Below are positions 11,955 through 32,896 of a DNA stretch of 34,026 nt, piece after piece. The stretch lies in the NCBI GenBank assembly GCA_020350905.1, contig CP070843.1, positions 1,074,584 through 1,108,609 of the forward strand. The letters are read 5' to 3'. Every line of letters begins with the position of its first letter. Position 1 is the stretch's first letter. The notes below the pieces were generated by a model. The model did no database searches and was not told the origin of the DNA. It worked only from the letters and a program-made list of their open reading frames with translations. Source of the DNA: Deltaproteobacteria bacterium (lineage in GTDB: Bacteria; Desulfobacterota; Syntrophobacteria; BM002). A program made the position numbers and the translations under genes.

Positions 11955-14087
11955 TTACAGTAGCACCTTAATCACCACAATTGTGATGTCGTCTTCTTGC
12001 TCTCTGCCCCCACGAAAGTCGCTGACTTCCTCAAGCACAGCGTCTTGAATGGCTCCAGCGGAGTTGTGATGGTTATTACGGATGATTTGGGAAAGACGGT
12101 CTTTACCGAACATCTCTCCCTCTCCGTTGTGGGTCTCCCAGATACCGTCCGTACCGATGAGAATAATTGTCCCGTCCGTTTCGATGGTCTTTTCAACATG
12201 TTCGTAACAATAGTCTTCCTCCACCCCTAAGACCATTCCTGGCCCCATGAGCTCTTCCAGGGTCTCAGTGGCGGGATCGTAGAGGAAGGCTGGATCGTGT
12301 CCGGCTCTGACCCAACTGATTACGCGTGAGTCCTCCTCTATCATAAGAAAGAACAGGCTTATGAACCTGCCGCTATCTCTCACATCAACGGAGAGAAGAC
12401 TGTTGACTTGAGTGAGACTCTCGGCCAGATTTTCCGGTCTCGTCACCAGCCCCCTTATGAGCCCCCTGGCTGTGGCCATGAGCAAAGCGGCCCCAACTCC
12501 ATGGCCCGTGACGTCGCCCACCACAATGCCATAGCGGGCGCAGTCTTCATCCTCACAGGGGAAAAAGTCAAAGTAGTCCCCACCAGTCTCGTCGCAGTAG
12601 ACGCTCTTGGCAGCAATATCAAAGCCGCGTAAGTTTGGTATCTCCTGGGGCAGGAGATTTTGTTGCACTTCCTTGGCCACTTCCAGAGACTTACGGATTA
12701 GTATTCTGTCTTCGAGCTGCGGAACCATTTCATTGAAGGTCTTCGCCAGCAGATCGCGTTCATCGCCTGTTTTTATGTTGATTCGTGCAGAGAAATCGCC
12801 CTTTGCCAGACGCTTGACCGCCTCAACCATGACGAAGAGAGGCCTGATCATGGCGTGGGCGAACCACAGACCGGCCAACATAAGCAAGAGAATCACTCCA
12901 ATGGCAACAACCCCGGTAATCAGCCACTGTTCTTTAACCATTGAATGTAACGATTCTCGTACCCGTTCAAACTGCTCCAAAATAATCCTTTTGGGTACGA
13001 TGAGTATAAGATTCAAGTCGTCACCGGCGTGACCATAGGCCCAGACAGAATCCACACCGAAATAAGGCATGTCGATGTAGCCGGCTTGTCTGGCTTTGAT
13101 TTCTCCTTCCAACAATTCCATGCTCTCAACATCTGAAGATGCGAGTCGTTCCACCCCCATCGCGCCGCTCCAGGCAGCGGCATTCTCCACATAGTCTTTT
13201 TGAGCTATTATCCAGAGGCCGTACTCACCGGTCTCTTCTTTTACCCCTGACCAGACAAGGAAAGAGCGCATGGCAGTTGACCACTGAGAAGATAATTCAT
13301 GAACCTGTAAAACCTCTGAAAGAAGCACGTCAATGGCGGCTACTCCTGCAAATGAACCGTCAGAGTGACGGATGGGCATAGAGGCAGTCATGATGACCTG
13401 ACGTGTAGAGACATCTATGTACGGGGTGCTCCAGGCCAACTCACCCTTTTCTCTGGCCAAGATATACGATGGACGAGTTTGTGGGTTGTACGTGGAAGGA
13501 TAGCCGCCGTGGCCGGGATAAGCTGCGTGAACGCCGCTCTCCAGGCTGACATACTGCCAATAGAGGATGTCGCCCAATTGGTTCTCAAACTCACTGTGCA
13601 CAGGAAGAAGTCTTCTCAGGCGACCAATGTCAGTTGCTACATACCGCCAGTCAGCTCCCGGTAGAACCAAAAAGACCTGATGACCGAAGCTCACAACCAT
13701 TGGTTCAGTTCCATCCCCAGCAGCACCTCTGATATGCTTGTGAGAAAATACGATATCTTTAGGAGCCTTGGTGGGGTTGTCGTAGTCATCAGCAAAATAG
13801 ACCTTAGCAGCGCCCTTCGGCGGTTCGGACAAAAAGCGCTCCGCATCTCTGGCAATGATTCTCAGTGTGAGTTCCAGCACTTCTTTTTCACGGCCAAGTA
13901 TCTTGGCATAGTCCGTTGCTGTTTGCTTGAGTTCTCTGCTGACGATTTCGGTCCGGTTCTTTTTTGCCAAACCGGATATGGTTTCACCCATTCGTACAAT
14001 TCCCCGTTGACCTACTAAAGTAACAACGAGAAGAGGCGCAAGACTGAAGGTCATAAAGAATATAAGGAATTTCCAGCGAACGCTCAT
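11955..14087 (-). CDS. Cache-HAMP-PP2C (SpoIIE-family) sensor protein phosphatase
   Basis: TM1 (FLIFFMTFSLAPLLVVTLVG), a periplasmic domain of about 340 aa (Cache-like), TM2, HAMP (RPLFVMVEAVKRLAKGDFSARI...FNEMVPQLEDR), then PP2C/SpoIIE motifs (GGDYFDFF, GDVTGHGVGAALLMA, GTDGIWE, EDDITIVVIKV). The ATG at 14087 is preceded by GGAGATGG. The track's 21-codon extension to 14150 runs into the repeat element. Confidence 0.92.
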   Translation of the reverse strand: MSVRWKFLIFFMTFSLAPLLVVTLVGQRGIVRMGETISGLAKKNRTEIVSRELKQTATDYAKILGREKEVLELTLRIIARDAERFLSEPPKGAAKVYFADDYDNPTKAPKDIVFSHKHIRGAAGDGTEPMVVSFGHQVFLVLPGADWRYVATDIGRLRRLLPVHSEFENQLGDILYWQYVSLESGVHAAYPGHGGYPSTYNPQTRPSYILAREKGELAWSTPYIDVSTRQVIMTASMPIRHSDGSFAGVAAIDVLLSEVLQVHELSSQWSTAMRSFLVWSGVKEETGEYGLWIIAQKDYVENAAAWSGAMGVERLASSDVESMELLEGEIKARQAGYIDMPYFGVDSVWAYGHAGDDLNLILIVPKRIILEQFERVRESLHSMVKEQWLITGVVAIGVILLLMLAGLWFAHAMIRPLFVMVEAVKRLAKGDFSARINIKTGDERDLLAKTFNEMVPQLEDRILIRKSLEVAKEVQQNLLPQEIPNLRGFDIAAKSVYCDETGGDYFDFFPCEDEDCARYGIVVGDVTGHGVGAALLMATARGLIRGLVTRPENLAESLTQVNSLLSVDVRDSGRFISLFFLMIEEDSRVISWVRAGHDPAFLYDPATETLEELMGPGMVLGVEEDYCYEHVEKTIETDGTIILIGTDGIWETHNGEGEMFGKDRLSQIIRNNHHNSAGAIQDAVLEEVSDFRGGREQEDDITIVVIKVLL

Positions 14088-14145
14088 AGGCCATCTCCGA
14101 TGATGGTGCAAGGGGCAGGGCAAAGTAGGCACTAGGAGCCTACAA

Positions 14146-14309
14146 GTCATTACATTTCGCCCAAGCGCGCTTCATTGTCACTTGGGCTGGCGCCCGTCAT
14201 TTATGGTCATTTGTGGTTATTTGCCAATTCATCATCACTAATCATAACGACCTAATGACAACAAATGACAGCGAAGCGTAGTGACGGCCACATCTAGTGG
14301 CCAAATGAC
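14146..14309. repeat. GTCAT/ATGAC-box mosaic element, copy C
   Basis: GTCAT-type boxes at 14146, 14177, 14196 and 14206. ATGAC-type boxes at 14255, 14265, 14281 and 14305. Hairpin GGCCAC-atcta-GTGGCC at 14286-14302. Shares an exact 25-mer with copy E and exact 27- and 22-mers, inverted, with copy F. Confidence 0.85.
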
Positions 14310-27321: not shown

Positions 27322-28620
27322 CTATGTAACTCTGATGACCACGAGGGTAATATCATCCTCGGGTTTAAGGCCAGATCTGAAACTCTCTAAATCGTTATAG
27401 ATGGCGTTGACAATGTCGTCTGCTTCCGCACTCGCGTTCTTGCGGAAGATGCTGTGGAAGCGCTCCTTGCCATACATCTCTCCATCTCTGTTGAAGGACT
27501 CCCATATTCCGTCAGTTCCTATGGCGATGATTTGTCCGCTGGTAAGTTCTGTTTTCAGGTTTTCCTCGTAGGCAAATTCTTCATCGAGGCCGAGGGCTAG
27601 TCCTCTGCCTTTTAGTTCCTCAAATTGGTCCTTAACCGGATCGTATATTATGGCCGGGTCATGACCGGCACGAACCCAGCGAAGATTTCCACTGTCAGTA
27701 TCAATGGTCATGTAGAGCAAGGTCATAAACCGACCTGTATCGAGGACATCCCGGGTTAAGTGGCGGTTCATCTCATTGACAATTTGAGAAATACTCCCAG
27801 GTTGAGAGGAGCGCATGCGGAGAAAAGTGCGAGCTGAAGTCATAAGGAGAGCTGCATCAACTCCGTGGCCGGTGATGTCTCCAACCACCACAGAAAATGG
27901 CCTGTCGGGGTACTCTTCGCCCAACAGATAGTCGAAATAGTCTCCGCCGATTTCCTCACAGGGGATGCTCCTCCCTGCTATATCGAGTCCGTTAATACGG
28001 AGATTCTTCTGTGGTAGGAGACTTTTTTGAACTTCTCCGGCAAGTTCCAGTGCTTTCTTGTGCTCAGTAATATCAACGAGGACTCCCTGAGTCTGTGTTT
28101 TGATGCCGTTGGCATCCTTGACAACGGATGTCTGGTCTTTTATCCAACGGACTTCACCACTCTTGGTTAGAATGCGATAGATCTGAGTGTATTCTTCCAC
28201 ATCTTTTTCAGCGTAATCTCTTATTTCCTCTTCAAAACGAGCCAAATCATCTGGGTGTACTATATCTTTGTAGTCCATGGTTCCATATAGAAGCCCATCA
28301 GTGGTATATCCAAATCGAGCTATATTGCGAGAAAAATAAAGCAAACTTGGTTGATCTCCTAATAGTCTTCGAAAAAGGATAACAGGACTTTTGTCGATAA
28401 TGACATTCGCCATGCGAAGCATTTCTTCGGTTCGGTCACGCTCAGCGCGCTCCTGAGCATATTCTCGGCTCTGTTTTTCAAACTTTTCTTCTAGCTCTCC
28501 GTACAAATTCTCAACTTTCTCTAAACGGCTTCGCAAACCTTCGGCTTCAGCTGCTTTCTGCTGCAATGAGTTCAATTTTTGGAGGAGTTCTTCTTTTGAT
28601 TTGGTGTCATCAGATGTCAT
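27322..28620 (-). CDS. coiled-coil/PAS-domain PP2C (SpoIIE-family) protein phosphatase
   Basis: N-terminal coiled coil (KEELLQKLNSLQQKAAEAEGLRSRLEKVENLYGELEEKFEKQ), a PAS-like core (VRWIKDQTSVVKDANGIKTQTQGVLVDITEHK), then PP2C motifs (GGDYFDYL, GDITGHGVDAALLMT, GTDGIWE, EDDITLVVIRV). I chose the ATG at 28620 (MTSDD). A GTG lies at 28644. Confidence 0.9.
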   Translation of the reverse strand: MTSDDTKSKEELLQKLNSLQQKAAEAEGLRSRLEKVENLYGELEEKFEKQSREYAQERAERDRTEEMLRMANVIIDKSPVILFRRLLGDQPSLLYFSRNIARFGYTTDGLLYGTMDYKDIVHPDDLARFEEEIRDYAEKDVEEYTQIYRILTKSGEVRWIKDQTSVVKDANGIKTQTQGVLVDITEHKKALELAGEVQKSLLPQKNLRINGLDIAGRSIPCEEIGGDYFDYLLGEEYPDRPFSVVVGDITGHGVDAALLMTSARTFLRMRSSQPGSISQIVNEMNRHLTRDVLDTGRFMTLLYMTIDTDSGNLRWVRAGHDPAIIYDPVKDQFEELKGRGLALGLDEEFAYEENLKTELTSGQIIAIGTDGIWESFNRDGEMYGKERFHSIFRKNASAEADDIVNAIYNDLESFRSGLKPEDDITLVVIRVT

Positions 28621-28907
28621 GGCAAATTTCCTATTAAAGTTCACTGCAGGTGCCCAAAGAACACTTTAGAGACTTAATTTTCAAATAAGATATACCATAT
28701 TCCTTCTAAACCAAGAAAGAGGACGGTTTGCAAATATCTGAACTTTCGGAAAATCAAAGATATGAAAAGTAAATCGAAACGTTTTGGTGGGATGCCAGAG
28801 TTTACATAAATAGCAGGAACCAAAAACTTTGAAGCCAGCGCCTCAACAACCAAATCTAGTACGAAATGCACTTTTATCAAATTAAGTTAGGTTATTGCAT
28901 AAGAGCT

Positions 28908-29708
28908 TTACTCTATTATGATGTCTCCGCAAACATATCTGGACGCCACCTCATTCGCGAACCGCACTGCGTCCTTAAAAGTCTTTCCATTCATAAGGGC
29001 ACAGTAAAAGCCTGCACGGAATGAATCTCCCGCTCCGATTGTTCTAACAACATTATTAACCCTTTTTGCTTGAATACTAATTTCTTCGTTTCTGTGAATC
29101 AGCCTCGCCCCTTCACTCCCCAGAGTTAAAACAATCCGTATTTTAGGTTCGCCCACAAGTTTCCGGATGAACCCATACTCGTTCTTATTACAGAAAAGCA
29201 GGTCCGCATATTTTAGTAGTTTCTGCAGAATTCCCTTGTCGTACTTGTAGAAAACCTCCTGCCCAGGGTCCAAAGCAATTCTTCCTCTCACCTTCTCAGC
29301 AACTTCAAGATATGATTCTGGAGACCCTGTGCAGAAATGAGTCCACTTCGCTTCGCCGAAAGATTGCCAGCGCGCATTATCCATGGGGCCTTGATAGATT
29401 GCTGCGATCTGCTCATTGCCGTCATCTATTATGTAGCAGAATGGACCGTCATCGTCTCCAAAAAGCACGCCATCTACACCCACACCGTTCCTTCTGAGTT
29501 TCTCGACGCATTCCTTTAGGGATTTGCCGACTGCCGAGTAAATATGCACACTCACTTCGAGCTTGGCTGCTATCATTGCGGTGTTGAAAGCGGTTCCCCC
29601 GCAGCATACTTCCCTATCAGTAACTGCAACTGATCCAACCTCTGGGATGTATGGTACGCGGAGAATTACGTCGCGATTAATATGCCCAAAAACGTTCAGA
29701 AACGGCAT
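28908..29708 (-). CDS. PfkB-family carbohydrate/nucleoside kinase
   Basis: Ribokinase-like fold motifs: N-terminal GHINRDV...GGTAFN and C-terminal TIGAGDSFRAGF (the GAGD anion hole). Confidence 0.88.
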   Translation of the reverse strand: MPFLNVFGHINRDVILRVPYIPEVGSVAVTDREVCCGGTAFNTAMIAAKLEVSVHIYSAVGKSLKECVEKLRRNGVGVDGVLFGDDDGPFCYIIDDGNEQIAAIYQGPMDNARWQSFGEAKWTHFCTGSPESYLEVAEKVRGRIALDPGQEVFYKYDKGILQKLLKYADLLFCNKNEYGFIRKLVGEPKIRIVLTLGSEGARLIHRNEEISIQAKRVNNVVRTIGAGDSFRAGFYCALMNGKTFKDAVRFANEVASRYVCGDIIIE

Positions 29709-29837
29709 CTTCCCAGTGCTTTCAAGATCCTTTTCTTAAATTAGGGGATTCCTGAGCCTGATTAGTATCTACTACTATACCAGAAACTCAACACCGTTGG
29801 TTCATGAGTCTTTTAACCGCTGATTCTTACGGCTGTG

Positions 29838-30125
29838 TCAGCAGCCTGTCTTCGGTTCTGACTTTGGCAGAGGAGCATCCCTTGGATTGCCTAGCTTTTC
29901 CTCAATCCACCATTCGTAGAAAGAGCAACGTCTTGTCTCCTGCCAGTGCAACATAGGATCCGTTCTCAACCGACATTGGCAATCGGTGGTGATGTAGGGG
30001 CAATCACGGGGGCACTTCGACGAAACAGGACCACCAGGGATAAAACGCTGTCTCTTAAGGGCCTTGACCGTTTTGCGCTTGCCTCCGCGCCATGCTTTGC
30101 CGCGTTGTTTAGAGTTCTTTCGCAC
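29838..30125 (-). CDS. hypothetical small basic Cys-rich protein (orfF of the unknown module)
   Basis: 95-aa ORF with a GTG start. The N-terminus is Lys/Arg-rich, followed by C-x3-C-x6-C-x-C (KCPRDCPYITTDCQC) and a Trp-rich tail. The nearest AGGAGG lies 17 nt upstream, which is too far, so the start and coding status are uncertain. Confidence 0.4.
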   Translation of the reverse strand: MRKNSKQRGKAWRGGKRKTVKALKRQRFIPGGPVSSKCPRDCPYITTDCQCRLRTDPMLHWQETRRCSFYEWWIEEKLGNPRDAPLPKSEPKTGC

Positions 30126-30245
30126 GTTATCTATGTTCCAATACCTCCTGGGAGATCTACTGACTTAGTGGCTATTTCCGAACGCCTTCACATAAAACGT
30201 CCAATAGGTTCCTACTTCTGAGTGGTAAGGTCTAGACAAGGCCCA

Positions 30246-30653
30246 TTACAACTTCCCTACTGCCTTGAACCCCTCAGGGGCATCCTGACCACTATCAAAG
30301 AAGCTCGCTTCCACCCAGTCATTCATGGCTTTGGTTAGAATCCTTTCCAAGTCCTTTTCTCGGTATTTAATGACCGTCTGTGCTACAAAGGGAAAGAGAA
30401 CGGAATCTGGCTCATCAATTGAGCCCTCCGGTCTTGACTGGGCAGGCTCTGCGAATACCATGACCCAAGCTATAGGTACTCTCCCCTCATGCCGCAGTGC
30501 TTTTATAAGCTCCTCGGCAAGGGCCTGGTAGACTTTGCTTCTGACTCCTCCCTCAATATTTACGGACTCCCGCAGATTGCGCTCGTCTAGCCGCTGTCTC
30601 CCATCTCGGTAAGCTTTCTTTTCCTTATTCCAGTTACGCAGCTGACTCACCAT
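30246..30653 (-). CDS. hypothetical protein (orfE of the unknown module)
   Basis: The ATG at 30653 is preceded by GGAAGGAGAG and overlaps the end of orfD by 20 nt. An alternative ATG lies at 30692. I recognise no motif. Confidence 0.6.
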   Translation of the reverse strand: MVSQLRNWNKEKKAYRDGRQRLDERNLRESVNIEGGVRSKVYQALAEELIKALRHEGRVPIAWVMVFAEPAQSRPEGSIDEPDSVLFPFVAQTVIKYREKDLERILTKAMNDWVEASFFDSGQDAPEGFKAVGKL

Positions 30654-30951
30654 ACTCTCCTTCCGCCAAGGCGAATTTACCCTCCTCGACATGTATCAGC
30701 CCTGAACGGATCATCTCAGCCACAATATTGTCTATGTGCGCTTGAATGGCTTGGTTTAGCTCTTTTTGTTGGAGATTTTTCGGGATAGCCTCTTTTAGCC
30801 ATCCTACGGCGCGGGACAAACTCCCATCCTCTGAAGCCCAGAATATAATGGTCAGAACCGGTAAGGCCTCTGCTGACGGACGGCTGGGATGTCCCTCGTA
30901 CCAAGGCTTGTCTTTGCGTCTCACAATAAGTCTGTTGCCGTTGTCTCCCAT
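30634..30951 (-). CDS. hypothetical protein with a possible C-terminal winged-helix (orfD of the unknown module)
   Basis: The ATG at 30951 is preceded by AAAGGAGGG at 12 nt. The frame stays open up to a GTG at 31092, so the start is uncertain. The C-terminal IVAEMIRSGLIHVEEGKFALAE looks like a wHTH wing, by eye only. Confidence 0.55.
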   Translation of the reverse strand: MGDNGNRLIVRRKDKPWYEGHPSRPSAEALPVLTIIFWASEDGSLSRAVGWLKEAIPKNLQQKELNQAIQAHIDNIVAEMIRSGLIHVEEGKFALAEGEYGESAA

Positions 30952-31058
30952 GTTATTTATTTCCCTCCTTTTTCTGCTCATCTTTATAAGTGTCTTGGCC
31001 AAGGCCCATTGGCGCTTGCTTCGAGTGGATAGATATGTTGGTATAACCTCACCTGGCC

Positions 31059-31406
31059 TCACCTCCACACTTTTCCGTTGAGGCTCACGCACGGCTCGTC
31101 ATCCCGTGCCTGTCCGAGATCCTGAATAAAGAACTCTAGGCTGTCCTCAAGGCAGACCGGACAGCGCGCCCGCATCATGTCCTTGACCAGCGACTGCTTG
31201 CTGTCCACCAATTTCCGAACCCGAAAGTGGTCGGGGCAGTTTCTACATGTCTCGGTGATAAGCCACCATCTGACCCTCCTGGCGCGCATGTGCATAAAAA
31301 GATCAGGCGAGCCGATCGGCTCATAGTTAACGCCATGGTCGGTCGGGGGTATGAATTCGCACGAAAGATGTTTCTTTTCGGGTCTTTTCTCAACTACTTC
31401 CGACAC
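31059..31406 (-). CDS. hypothetical zinc-ribbon-like protein (orfC of the unknown module)
   Basis: The GTG at 31406 is preceded by GAGGAGGGAGAG (core about 8 nt upstream). It contains CRNC-x24-CPVC, that is C-x2-C ... C-x2-C. Confidence 0.65.
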   Translation of the reverse strand: MSEVVEKRPEKKHLSCEFIPPTDHGVNYEPIGSPDLFMHMRARRVRWWLITETCRNCPDHFRVRKLVDSKQSLVKDMMRARCPVCLEDSLEFFIQDLGQARDDEPCVSLNGKVWR

Positions 31407-31445
31407 CGTCTCTCCCTCCTCTTGGTTAAAACAAGTCTTCCTTAC

Positions 31446-31631
31446 CTATGCGGTGATGACGAACTTTTTGGATGTTTTCTTGGGCAGCAACATTTCGAGC
31501 TCCGTCAGAACAAGATTCAGAATACCTATGGCTTCCCTGATGCTTTGAGTTATGTAGAATTTTCCGTGAGCGGTCATTCCTTTTTTCCAACTAATGAGAC
31601 TATCCATCATAATTTTTGCATCATTGATCAA
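31446..31631 (-). CDS. hypothetical 61-aa ORF (orfB), in frame with orfA across a single TGA
   Basis: A TTG start directly abuts the TGA of orfA (31632-31634) in the same reading frame. There is no Shine-Dalgarno of its own. It may be the C-terminal half of a 134-codon gene. Confidence 0.4.
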   Translation of the reverse strand: MINDAKIMMDSLISWKKGMTAHGKFYITQSIREAIGILNLVLTELEMLLPKKTSKKFVITA

Positions 31632-31850
31632 TCACATGGCTTCCACGTTGAGATCTTCGTAGTTTACGTCTGACTCGGTATAATGCCGACAGCAGTTCAC
31701 TCGGAACCAGGCTGCAGCTAGGCTCTTCGAAATTTCGATCCCTCTCATTGCGCCCCGCTCAATTTCTTTGAGCACAGATTTCAGGATCCTCAAGGTCTCA
31801 TAGAGGTGCCCTATAGCCTCGAGGGGTTGAGTTGCGGTCAGATTTGGCAT
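31632..31850 (-). CDS. hypothetical 72-aa ORF (orfA, first gene of the unknown module)
   Basis: The ATG at 31850 is preceded by GGAGGAG at 9 nt. The track ORF starts at a TTG at 31886. It is predicted to be helical and ends at a TGA. Confidence 0.5.
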   Translation of the reverse strand: MPNLTATQPLEAIGHLYETLRILKSVLKEIERGAMRGIEISKSLAAAWFRVNCCRHYTESDVNYEDLNVEAM

Positions 31851-32620
31851 TGTCTCTATCTCCTCCAAGTAAGTGGGAGCGGACAATTTAACTTCGAGGC
31901 AGACGTCGGGAATTCAAGCCGGCTTCGAAGCCCACTAAATCACGGTTCTTTGCAGGAGCAATGATCGGAGTAAAACCAAGCGCATCAACAAGGGGAGTTT
32001 ATGTTGAGGGGAGATTAGGTGTGGTTCAAGAGGTACATTATAAGCATTCGATGGAATACTACTGATTGTGAGCCCGAACACCCACTCCTTGTTGGTGCAG
32101 ACTCGAAAATGGTTCTTTTTTCACACATTTTTTTATTCATGATGACGGCAACTTATTGTTCTTCGTTACATTCTAATTATAAGATACATAGGCGCATTTT
32201 GCAATCCAAGTTCCACCCACTTTTTGTAACCAATTCGTTCAAAAGCTGAGCGTACGGAGGGCAGTTATAAGTATCCTGTATCCCTACTAGTTTTGCGTGA
32301 TATTGTAGATAACACACAAGACAGTTCGTCGCCAGGAACCTATTTATCTTATGGTATTCAAATAGGTAGTGTGGAAACACCACCATCTAGATACTGTGCC
32401 AAACTGCTGTGATCGGGAAATGAAAGTATCTTGCCTTATATTGAGATGTCAACATGTTAAGAGCTGAAAATCATATGGTGAGTCGGTTTGGAAAAAGGAA
32501 CGACCTAATATCTCATTTGATTGAGTTATATAAAGCCCTATCCAGCGGGAACTCACTTCAAGGGAGTTCTATTATCTCTTAGACCGATGGTATGATAGAA
32601 ATAGCTGAGGATTCTGCGAA

Positions 32621-32896
32621 ATGATTTGGATGGCTGAAAAGAGAGTATTCCAGCTCATATTTGATTTGGGATTCGAAAGCCTAGAGATACCCGTCCGCGT
32701 GAAATTCGAGTTTGAGGTCAAAGAAGGAAATTTAGTCCCTGACTCGCTCACCAAGACTATGCTTTACAACAAACAGCTCCTAAAGCGACGTTACCCAAAC
32801 TTGGACCACGCAGGCTTCCAACGCTCAATAGAAAGTAAGGTAGACAATGAGATTCAAAAACACCTCCAAGAGCACGGATTTATAGCACGGGTTTAG
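32621..32896 (+). CDS. hypothetical 91-aa protein
   Basis: An ATG with GAGGA 9 nt upstream. The composition looks protein-like (KFEFEVKEGNLVPDSL...). I recognise no family. Confidence 0.45.
   Translation: MIWMAEKRVFQLIFDLGFESLEIPVRVKFEFEVKEGNLVPDSLTKTMLYNKQLLKRRYPNLDHAGFQRSIESKVDNEIQKHLQEHGFIARV

What the first reader, a model, noticed from the sequence alone, without database searches (positions are those of the whole stretch)
29838..31886. Compact six-ORF minus-strand module with no recognisable family: the best candidate in this window for an undescribed system
**What is seen.** Six co-directional small ORFs (72, 61, 115, about 105-152, about 135-148 and 95 aa) are packed with operon-like junctions:
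- A and B abut, with a TGA followed directly by a TTG.
- B to C has a 39-nt gap.
- The open frame of D overlaps the end of C.
- D and E overlap by 20 nt.
- E to F has a 120-nt gap.

Four of them carry strong Shine-Dalgarno sequences: GGAGGAG for A, GAGGAGGGAGAG for C, AGGAGG for D and AAGGAG for E.

**What I can and cannot recognise.** I could not match any product to an enzyme or structural family. Only generic features are visible:
- C-x2-C-x24-C-x2-C in orfC.
- A possible winged helix at the end of orfD.
- A basic N-terminus plus C-x3-C-x6-C-x-C in orfF.

**Context.** The module sits in the compositionally patchy right third of the window. A 734-bp AT-rich non-coding stretch lies upstream, and a PfkB kinase and a PAS-PP2C phosphatase lie downstream on the same strand.

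**Inference only.** This could be an accessory module of a regulatory, addiction or defence type, or a remnant of a mobile-element early region.
Basis: partly seen in the sequence, partly recalled or inferred. Interest (0 to 1): 0.75.

Follow-up and report, generated by a model that had tools for sequence, protein, structure and literature searches.

The report
Conserved small-gene operon with long leader
The six "ORFs" are really a promoter, a long conserved untranslated leader and three solid small genes (zinc-ribbon, winged-helix-like, unknown), plus one broken gene and one doubtful ORF; this operon of unknown function occurs only in a narrow group of sediment Deltaproteobacteria.

Summary
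The ORFs exist at the stated coordinates, but the anatomy differs from the finding.

- **A and B:** these are one 134-aa gene, cut here by an in-frame TGA where relatives have a Gly codon.
- **C, D and E:** C is 115 aa with an invariant Cys4 zinc ribbon. D is 105 aa and winged-helix-like. E is 135 aa and overlaps D by 17-20 nt. All three are real genes (dN/dS 0.1-0.3) and recur together in other contigs.
- **F:** its DNA is conserved, but it does not evolve like a coding sequence.
- **Upstream "non-coding stretch":** it holds a consensus sigma-70 promoter and a ~325-nt leader as conserved as the proteins. The leader always sits 5' of whichever gene comes first (AB, C or D).
- **Variants:** the unit occurs in at least 12 genomic contexts with parts missing. 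D is the part nearly always kept; E is never without D in cellular contigs.
- **Family searches:** Pfam, PHROGs, NCBIfam, PADLOC, Rfam, PDB and Foldseek gave no significant match. The only leads are E versus a myophage tail tube (E 0.009) and D versus PqqD or winged-helix folds.
- **Source:** a 3.65-Mb Deltaproteobacteria MAG, where A, C, D and E are annotated as hypothetical proteins.

My best guess, with low confidence, is an autoregulated D-E (+C) regulatory or addiction-like module. It is genuinely uncharacterised and moderately interesting.

The parts
32176..32204 (-). Sigma-70-type promoter, TTGCAA-17 nt-TATAAT
   Evidence: The consensus scan found it. Both hexamers are conserved in nearly all nine aligned loci.
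31851..32175 (-). Conserved untranslated leader of about 325 nt, always 5' of the first gene of the unit
   Evidence: - blastn identity to other loci is 68-87%.
- nhmmer finds it in 14 loci at E 1e-72 to 1e-102.
- Every reading frame is broken in some loci.
- There is no Rfam match.
- Fold z-score is -1.0, and RNAalifold gives no covariation support.
31446..31850 (-). Gene AB (134 codons), interrupted by an in-frame TGA at 31632-31634.
   Evidence: - The gene is uninterrupted in L016, L008, P0122 and P0123.
- It is frameshifted in L013 and L019.
- Only the 72-aa A part is annotated, as UCF03083.1.
- There is no family or PDB match.
31059..31406 (-). Gene C, 115 aa, Cys4 zinc-ribbon protein
   Evidence: - It has 24 homologues at 65-97% identity.
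- C54, C57, H60, C82, C85 and C106 are invariant.
- dN/dS is 0.11-0.21.
- The product is identical to UCF03082.1.
30634..30951 (-). Gene D, 105 aa, with a conserved N-terminal PWYExHPSRPS motif and a winged-helix-like C-terminal half. It is the most widely kept part.
   Evidence: - It has 43 homologues.
- dN/dS is 0.21-0.30.
- Weak matches go to winged-helix families and to a PqqD-family chain at E 0.023.
- AlphaFold2 pLDDT is 67.
- The product is identical to UCF03081.1.
30246..30653 (-). Gene E, 135 aa, with a basic helical N-terminal half and an acidic C-terminal domain carrying PIAWVMVFAEP. Its start overlaps the end of D by 20 nt.
   Evidence: - It has 26 homologues.
- Only 7 clusters exist among 1.84 billion representatives.
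- dN/dS is 0.17 for deep pairs.
- The only PDB match is the A-1(L) tail tube, at E 0.009.
- The product is identical to UCF03080.1.
30126..30245 (-). Conserved E-F spacer
   Evidence: It is 81-82% identical to L003 and L014. Its first ~45 nt are also shared with L005.
29838..30125 (-).
   Evidence: - Nucleotide identity to L003 and L014 is 87-88%.
- Differences by codon position are 7/10/12 and 6/11/8.
- dN/dS is 0.32-0.51 with low dS.
- The start codon and two Cys are not conserved.
- The region is absent from L005 and L016.
- The product is not in the protein collection.
- Fold z-score is +1.3.

Best explanation
**Shown**
- This is one transcription unit, restricted to a narrow lineage of sediment Deltaproteobacteria (Syntrophobacterales-like).
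- Its order is: consensus sigma-70 promoter, conserved ~325-nt untranslated leader, then small genes AB, C, D, E and a conserved 3' region ("F").
- In this genome AB is inactivated by a stop codon.
- C (zinc ribbon), D and E are intact and under purifying selection.
- The D/E overlap of 17-20 nt is conserved.
- The unit recurs in many genomic contexts as deletion variants. The leader and D are almost always kept.

**Inferred**
- The D/E overlap couples their translation.
- D is a small winged-helix DNA-binding protein that binds the promoter or leader of its own operon and forms a complex with its partner E.
- C is an accessory zinc-ribbon nucleic-acid-binding or protein-binding subunit.
- The unit acts as a self-contained, autoregulated accessory module of the addiction (toxin-antitoxin-like) or small-regulator type. 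E would be the active partner that D keeps in check.
- This would explain why E is never found without D, while D often survives alone.
For: **The genes are real**
- Homologue counts and dN/dS support C, D and E.

**Gene order and coupling**
- C-D-E or D-E recur in L003, L004, L005, L013, L014, L021 and two JGI contigs, always with the 17-20-nt D/E overlap.

**Promoter and leader**
- They are conserved and always placed first.

**D as a DNA-binding protein**
- Weak but repeated winged-helix-type matches: PCI, HTH_ParB, SelB wing, Rrf2 and Mnd1, and a PqqD-family chain.
- The C-terminus has a GL(I/V)xxEEGKFALxxG pattern.

**Accessory behaviour**
- There are at least 12 different flanking contexts.
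- L013 is 97% identical, and L005 is 86-92% identical across the segments it shares. Both have unrelated flanks.
- Variants lacking AB, C, E or F exist, and E is truncated in L008/L009.
- AB is broken in three loci.
- D stands alone in L006/L007 and L017/L018.
- In every cellular locus where upstream DNA is available, E has D upstream.
- A homologue of E lies on a phage-like contig.
Against: - No toxin, antitoxin or defence model matches any product.
- The fold of E is unknown: AlphaFold2 pLDDT is 50, and Foldseek found nothing significant.
- D's winged helix is not predicted with confidence, and Foldseek found nothing.
- A 325-nt conserved leader and a conserved 3' region are not typical of toxin-antitoxin operons.
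- No integrase or transposase lies in the window, and no flanking repeats of note were found around the unit. The way it spreads is therefore unexplained.
- DUF72 lies near the unit both here and in L008. This hints at partly vertical inheritance.
- Two contexts place the unit directly before RpoD-like sigma genes, which suits a host-regulatory role.
Confidence: 0.35

Rival explanations
1. It is a vertically inherited, lineage-specific host regulatory operon. Small transcription factors (C, D, E) are expressed from a regulated long 5' UTR and act on host genes, possibly together with RpoD-like sigma-70 paralogues. The different contexts reflect low synteny and paralogy, not mobility.
For: - Leader-C sits directly before a 508-aa sigma-70 gene in L001/L002. 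Leader-D-E' sits before a 529-aa sigma-70 gene in L008/L009.
- DUF72 (70% amino-acid identity) and a VTT-domain gene lie near the unit both in L008 and in the window.
- The window is ordinary chromosome without mobile-element genes.
- C, D and E are under purifying selection.
- Nothing was found in phage, plasmid or viral collections.
Against: - Sigma-70 is adjacent in only 2 of at least 12 contexts, and none lies in this window.
- Near-identical copies (97%, and 86-92% by segment) have unrelated flanks.
- Frequent decay of AB and E is unexpected for a core regulator.
- The family is tiny: one hit among 185,579 species genomes.
Confidence: 0.3
2. It is a remnant or domesticated piece of a phage or other mobile element. 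E would derive from a tail-tube-fold protein, and C and D would be former early-region regulators.
For: - The only PDB match of the E profile is the tail tube of Anabaena myophage A-1(L), chain 8kee_S. It scores E 0.07 and improves to 0.009 with a more diverse profile.
- That alignment shares the EELI...PIAWVxVFxxP segment, and hhalign gives 86% probability. The chain is identified in PMC10966104.
- 9 of 27 family members touch the PHROG tail-tube family 35249 at E of at least 0.13.
- Homologue P0093 lies on phage-like contigs with RNR, ThyA and Tmk genes.
Against: - All matches are borderline.
- The AlphaFold2 model of E is unreliable and gave no tube hit.
- P0093 is not in a recognisable tail module.
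- tblastn against 50,697 phage records found nothing.
- No other phage gene lies in the window or in any related locus.
Confidence: 0.15
3. It is a RiPP-like cluster. D would be a PqqD-type leader-peptide recognition element, and a small ORF would be the precursor.
For: The D profile matches a PqqD-family chain (9x8z_B) at E 0.023 over about 40 residues.
Against: - No Pfam PqqD hit appears among the families listed for the 44 members.
- No radical-SAM, cyclodehydratase, protease or transporter gene is adjacent in any locus.
- F's Cys residues are not conserved.
Confidence: 0.03
4. The ORFs are chance open frames and not genes.
For: This applies only to F: it has no third-position excess, its start is not conserved, and two pipelines did not call it.
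Against: C, D and E have many homologues, low dN/dS and conserved starts and overlaps, and they are annotated proteins.
Confidence: 0.02

Closest known systems
Type II toxin-antitoxin operons, including three-gene forms with an extra regulator
   Same: - Small co-directional genes with a conserved start/stop overlap.
- The first partner is probably DNA-binding.
- A strong promoter.
- Many genomic contexts.
- Copies that decay, with the first gene surviving alone.
- A homologue on a phage-like contig.
   Different: - No sequence or fold match to any known toxin or antitoxin family.
- A long conserved untranslated leader and a conserved 3' region.
- No test of toxicity.
Phage tail tube proteins (myophage A-1(L) gp10, PDB 8kee chain S; PHROG 35249)
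   Same: About 70 residues of E align with the tube protein, including the EELI...PIAWVxVFxxP segment. The lengths are of the same order (135 versus 167 aa).
   Different: - The statistics are borderline: E 0.009 in PDB and 0.13 in PHROGs.
- No sheath, tape-measure or baseplate genes are nearby.
- E carries a basic helical N-terminal half that the match does not cover.
- The predicted structure is unreliable.
PqqD-type recognition elements and small winged-helix regulators
   Same: The C-terminal ~45 residues of D align with the last helix region of a PqqD-family chain. D also weakly touches several winged-helix Pfam families.
   Different: - No match reaches significance.
- No RiPP enzymes are nearby.
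- D has its own invariant N-terminal motif (PWYExHPSRPS) that is unknown elsewhere.
Long regulatory 5' leaders of bacterial operons (riboswitch or attenuator type)
   Same: It is a conserved untranslated segment of about 325 nt between a promoter and the first gene. It has a possible long-range helix, CAACAAGGAG with CTCCCCTTGTTG.
   Different: - No Rfam family matches.
- No significant fold stability or covariation was found.
- No intrinsic terminator is seen.

Membership tests
Type II toxin-antitoxin system | Two adjacent, co-transcribed small genes with coupled translation | tested here: met
   The D/E overlap of 17-20 nt is conserved in at least 8 loci.
Type II toxin-antitoxin system | The toxin belongs to a known toxin superfamily | tested here: not met
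   E has no significant hit in Pfam, NCBIfam, PADLOC, PHROGs, PDB or Foldseek.
Type II toxin-antitoxin system | The antitoxin has a recognised DNA-binding fold | tested here: inconclusive
   D has only weak winged-helix-type matches. Its AlphaFold2 model has pLDDT 67 and shows no clear winged helix.
Type II toxin-antitoxin system | The toxin arrests growth and the antitoxin neutralises it | not testable with these tools
   This needs expression experiments.
Known or candidate anti-phage defence systems (PADLOC-DB v2) | A significant match to a system's protein models | tested here: not met
   The best hit is A/AB versus PDC-S70, at E 3.5e-4 to 5e-3 and 15-18 bits, covering about 55 residues of a 161-aa model. 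PDC-S70 is described as a PIN-nuclease gene (PMC12988326). The match covers only about a third of that model, which is too little to place AB in the family.
Phage tail tube protein family | A significant profile match | tested here: inconclusive
   PDB hmmsearch gives E 0.07, improving to 0.009. hhalign gives 86% probability. The best PHROG 35249 E-value is 0.13.
Phage tail tube protein family | Neighbouring tail genes (sheath, chaperones, tape measure) | tested here: not met
   None is present in the window or related loci. None is recognisable next to the phage homologue.
PqqD / RiPP recognition element | A PqqD-domain match together with adjacent RiPP-modifying enzymes | tested here: not met
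   The only match is a PDB chain at E 0.023. PqqD is not among the Pfam families listed for the 44 members. No enzymes are adjacent.
Cys4 zinc ribbon (structural class only) | Two CxxC pairs conserved across the family | tested here: met
   C54, C57, C82 and C85 are invariant in all 24 sequences.
Zinc-binding anti-sigma factors (ZAS) | An H-x3-C-x2-C motif and a gene adjacent to its ECF sigma factor | tested here: not met
   C carries C-x2-C-x2-H instead. There is no Pfam zf-HC2 hit. The sigma genes next to C or D in L001 and L008 are RpoD-like with regions 1.2-4, not ECF.
Any Rfam RNA family (for the leader and the F region) | A covariance-model match | tested here: not met
   There are no hits at gathering score for the whole window. 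At E up to 10 on 29700-32500 there is only one chance snoRNA hit.

The most novel reading that the evidence does not exclude
The promoter-leader-C-D-E unit is a new kind of self-contained accessory or conflict module. In this reading, a protein distantly derived from the phage tail-tube fold (E) is held in check by a small winged-helix partner (D). A long conserved leader RNA or DNA segment would then be the sensing or control element, or the element that lets the unit spread.
Probability: 0.12. Interest if true: 0.7.

Novelty: new variant of a known kind. Interest (0 to 1): 0.45.

Why it matters
If the inferred mechanism holds, this would add a new protein family set to the small autoregulated or addiction-type modules. 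One partner may descend from a phage tube protein, and the leader is unusually long and conserved.

More modestly, the work does the following:
- It corrects the gene model of a closed MAG genome: one split gene, one doubtful ORF and one unannotated regulatory leader.
- It defines three uncharacterised protein families and one non-coding element.
- These can now be searched for, and tested, in sulfate-reducing and syntrophic sediment bacteria.
- Their link to RpoD-like sigma paralogues in two loci is a testable lead.

Tried and rejected
**Family scans**
- Pfam, PHROGs, PADLOC and NCBIfam scans of all products gave nothing significant.

**Structure**
- AlphaFold2 gave pLDDT 67 for D and 50 for E, too poor for fold assignment.
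- Foldseek of both models against PDB, and of D against BFVD, found nothing at E <= 0.001.
- The IS200-type TnpA hits for E (TM about 0.37) were rejected. The model is unreliable, and E has no conserved His or Tyr motif.

**PDB profile searches**
- Profiles of C, D, E and AB gave only the two weak leads.

**Phage, plasmid and viral collections**
- DNA and protein searches against phage and plasmid records found no match.
- IMG/VR scans for C, D, E and two leader patterns gave none, or chance 16-mers only.

**Small ORFs inside the leader**
- These were rejected because every frame is broken in L001, L006, L008 or L016.

**RNA structure**
- The leader and the F region show no fold stability, covariation or Rfam support.

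**F as a remnant of the sigma-70 gene**
- There is no similarity.

**Element boundaries**
- No tRNA gene was found in the window.
- No terminal direct or inverted repeats of note were found around the unit.

**PDC-S70 (PIN) membership of AB**
- Rejected as too weak and too partial.

**Phage contig**
- The neighbours of the E homologue on the phage-like contig are uninformative.
Full report
**1. What is in the sequence**

The junctions and Shine-Dalgarno sequences are also as described.

The products of A (72 aa), C (115 aa), D (105 aa) and E (135 aa) are identical to UCF03083.1, UCF03082.1, UCF03081.1 and UCF03080.1. These carry locus tags JSV14_05405 to 05390 in a "MAG: Deltaproteobacteria bacterium" with a 3,647,774-bp contig. 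All four are annotated "hypothetical protein". This fixes the source and supports the short starts of D and E. B and F are not in the 15-billion-protein collection.

The rest of the window is ordinary chromosome. It holds RND efflux genes, metabolic enzymes and two SpoIIE-type phosphatases, but no integrase or transposase. There are no tRNA genes.

**2. A and B are one broken gene**

- L016 and L008 carry a single 134-aa ORF that aligns with A followed directly by B.
- Cluster relatives at 90% identity or more (P0122, P0123) are also uninterrupted and read ...NVEAMGLINDA....
- The window has TGA where they have GGA or GGG, a single G-to-T change from GGA.
- L013 and L019 carry frameshifts in the same gene.
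- AB is therefore decaying in several lineages, unless these are assembly errors.
- AB has no family or PDB match.
- Its weak PADLOC hit is to PDC-S70 (E 3.5e-4 to 5e-3, about 55 residues). That model is described as a PIN-nuclease gene (PMC12988326). The match covers only about a third of that model, and I do not accept it as membership.

**3. C, D and E are real, conserved and linked**

| Gene | Homologues | Identity | dN/dS against the window copy |
|---|---|---|---|
| C | 24 | 65-97% | 0.11-0.21 |
| D | 43 | 57-97% | 0.21-0.30 |
| E | 26 | 54-99% | 0.17 (deep pairs) |

- All homologues come from metagenomes or MAGs, and none has a Pfam domain.
- C keeps C54, C57, H60, C82, C85 and C106 invariant.
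- D keeps an N-terminal PWYExHPSRPS motif and a C-terminal ...EMIRSGL(I/V)xxEEGKFALxxG segment.
- E has a basic helical N-terminal half (pI 9.9) and an acidic C-terminal domain (pI 4.7) carrying GRxPIAWVMVFAEP.
- D and E overlap by 17-20 nt in every locus where both are present.
- The family is very narrow. Only one of 185,579 species genomes, a Syntrophobacterales MAG, has C. The E profile finds only 7 clusters among 1.84 billion representatives.

**4. F is doubtful**

- The E-F spacer and the F frame are 81-88% identical to L003 and L014 at the DNA level. That is at or above the level of the neighbouring genes.
- Differences are spread evenly over codon positions: 7/10/12 and 6/11/8.
- dN/dS is 0.32-0.51, with a dS well below that of C, D and E.
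- The GTG start is GCG in L003, and two of the four Cys are replaced.
- JGI and NCBI did not call the ORF.
- The frame nevertheless stays open in all four copies.
- The region does not fold better than shuffled sequence, with z +1.3.
- It is absent from L005 and L016.
- I treat it as a conserved 3' element of unknown nature.

**5.

- blastn of related loci against the window showed that about 350-410 nt upstream of A (window 31850-32290) are 68-87% identical in L001, L003, L005, L006, L008 and L014.
- In those loci the segment lies directly before C or before D, because AB, or AB and C, are absent.
- The alignment starts with a consensus promoter, TTGCAA-17-TATAAT, at window 32204-32176.
- A leader of about 325 nt follows, running to the start codon of whichever gene is first.
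- nhmmer finds this leader in 14 loci at E 1e-72 to 1e-102. It does not find it in L017-L019 or in the phage contigs.
- All reading frames in the leader are broken in some loci, so it is non-coding.
- It has no Rfam match and no unusual stability, with z -1.0.
- RNAalifold gives a weak consensus of -13 kcal/mol with no covariation bonus. It does propose one plausible long-range helix, CAACAAGGAG with CTCCCCTTGTTG.
- Its conservation, at the level of the proteins, is far above what the synonymous divergence (dS 0.5-1.0) predicts for free sequence. Its role (operator array, 5' UTR control or something else) is not resolved.

**6. Variants and contexts**

Arrangements seen:

| Arrangement | Where |
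|---|---|
| leader-AB-C-D-E-F | window, L013 |
| leader-AB-C-D, then a possibly E-like 104-aa ORF | L016 |
| AB-D | L019 |
| leader-C-D-E-F | L003, L004, L014 |
| leader-C-D-E | L005 |
| C-D-E (DNA not available, so the leader could not be checked) | one JGI contig |
| D-E | a second JGI contig, L021 |
| leader-D-truncated E, then an RpoD-like sigma-70 gene | L008, L009 |
| leader-C, then another RpoD-like sigma-70 gene | L001, L002 |
| leader-D alone | L006, L007 |
| D alone, after an unrelated Cys-rich ORF | L017, L018 |

- The flanking genes differ in almost every case.
- L013 is 97% identical to the window only from 29660 to 32508. That span includes the first 16 codons of the PfkB gene. 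Both flanks are unrelated.
- L005, at 86-92% identity across its shared segments, also has unrelated flanks.
- Some synteny does exist. L008 carries AB, D, E', a DUF72 gene (70% identical) and a VTT-domain gene in one neighbourhood, but in a different order.
- The pattern looks like one ancestral operon that is copied or rearranged and then loses parts. The leader and D are the most persistent pieces. In cellular contigs E is never seen without D.

**7. Leads to function**

- **E.** Its only PDB match is the tail tube of Anabaena myophage A-1(L), 8kee chain S (identified in PMC10966104).
  - The E-value is 0.07 and improves to 0.009 when distant relatives are added to the profile.
  - hhalign probability is 86% over about 70 residues.
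  - 9 of 27 members touch the PHROG tail-tube family at E of at least 0.13.
  - The one viral homologue, P0093 (54% identical to the C-terminal half of E), sits on phage-like contigs with RNR, ThyA and Tmk genes. It is not in a recognisable tail module.
- **D.** It weakly matches a PqqD-family chain at E 0.023 and several winged-helix Pfam families.
- **Structure.** The AlphaFold2 models are poor (D 67, E 50), and Foldseek found nothing.
- **Collections.** Nothing was found in phage, plasmid or IMG/VR collections.

**8. Interpretation**

Shown:
- The unit is a real, narrowly distributed operon with a promoter, a long conserved leader, three sound genes, one broken gene and one doubtful ORF.

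Inferred:
- D is a small DNA-binding protein that controls the operon and pairs with E.
- The unit behaves as an autoregulated accessory (addiction-like or small-regulator) module.
- I give this mechanism about 0.35.

Rivals:

| Rival explanation | Confidence |
|---|---|
| Host regulatory operon linked to sigma-70 paralogues | 0.30 |
| Phage-derived remnant with a tube-fold protein | 0.15 |
| RiPP-like cluster | 0.03 |
| Chance ORFs (refuted for C, D and E) | 0.02 |

**9. Novelty and score**

- No component belongs to a described family. The general kind, a small co-transcribed regulatory or addiction operon, is familiar.
- The unusual features are the long leader that outlasts the genes, the conserved non-coding-like 3' region, the borderline tube-protein link and the two sigma-70 contexts.
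- Such uncharacterised small operons are common in MAGs, and no mechanism is demonstrated.
- I score interest at 0.45.

Noticed in passing
L010 4029-9212 (also L011, L012): These phage-like contigs carry RNR, ThyA, Tmk and NUDIX genes. They encode a 1727-aa protein with topoisomerase-IB/tyrosine-recombinase-like and RNA-ligase-like matches, just upstream of the E homologue P0093.
   Followed up: partly
L001 9999-11525 and 19557-end; L008 10631-12220: Several RpoD-like sigma-70 paralogues, 47% identical to each other, occur in the same metagenome. Two of them lie directly downstream of leader-C or leader-D-E' units.
   Followed up: partly
L017 5514-5849: An unrelated Cys-rich 111-aa ORF (CPFYGDC...CEECP) sits directly upstream of a stand-alone D gene that lacks the leader.
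   Followed up: no
L016 2192-2506: A 104-aa ORF follows D. Its VGFCLVFFDP segment resembles E's IAWVMVFAEP, so it may be a very divergent E.
   Followed up: partly
L005 about 2205-2260: Short tandem GAGCATAGCG-like repeats begin about 45 nt after the E stop codon, at the point where similarity to the window ends.
   Followed up: no
window 32621-32896 (+): A 91-aa ORF lies on the opposite strand between the unit and the DUF72 gene. It has no family match and no identical protein in the collection.
   Followed up: partly
window 11955-14150 and 27322-28644 (both -): The same 34-kb window holds two SpoIIE/PP2C phosphatases with sensor domains, one dCache-HAMP and one PAS.
   Followed up: no
L008 8961-9458; L001 11571-11666: A Host_attach/baeRF-family-12 gene lies just upstream of the leader in L008. 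A 32-residue fragment similar to it lies just after the sigma-70 gene in L001.
   Followed up: no
L013 7244-7291: L013 keeps only the first 16 codons of the PfkB gene, 100% identical to the window, before unrelated sequence begins. This marks either a rearrangement breakpoint or a chimeric assembly.
   Followed up: partly
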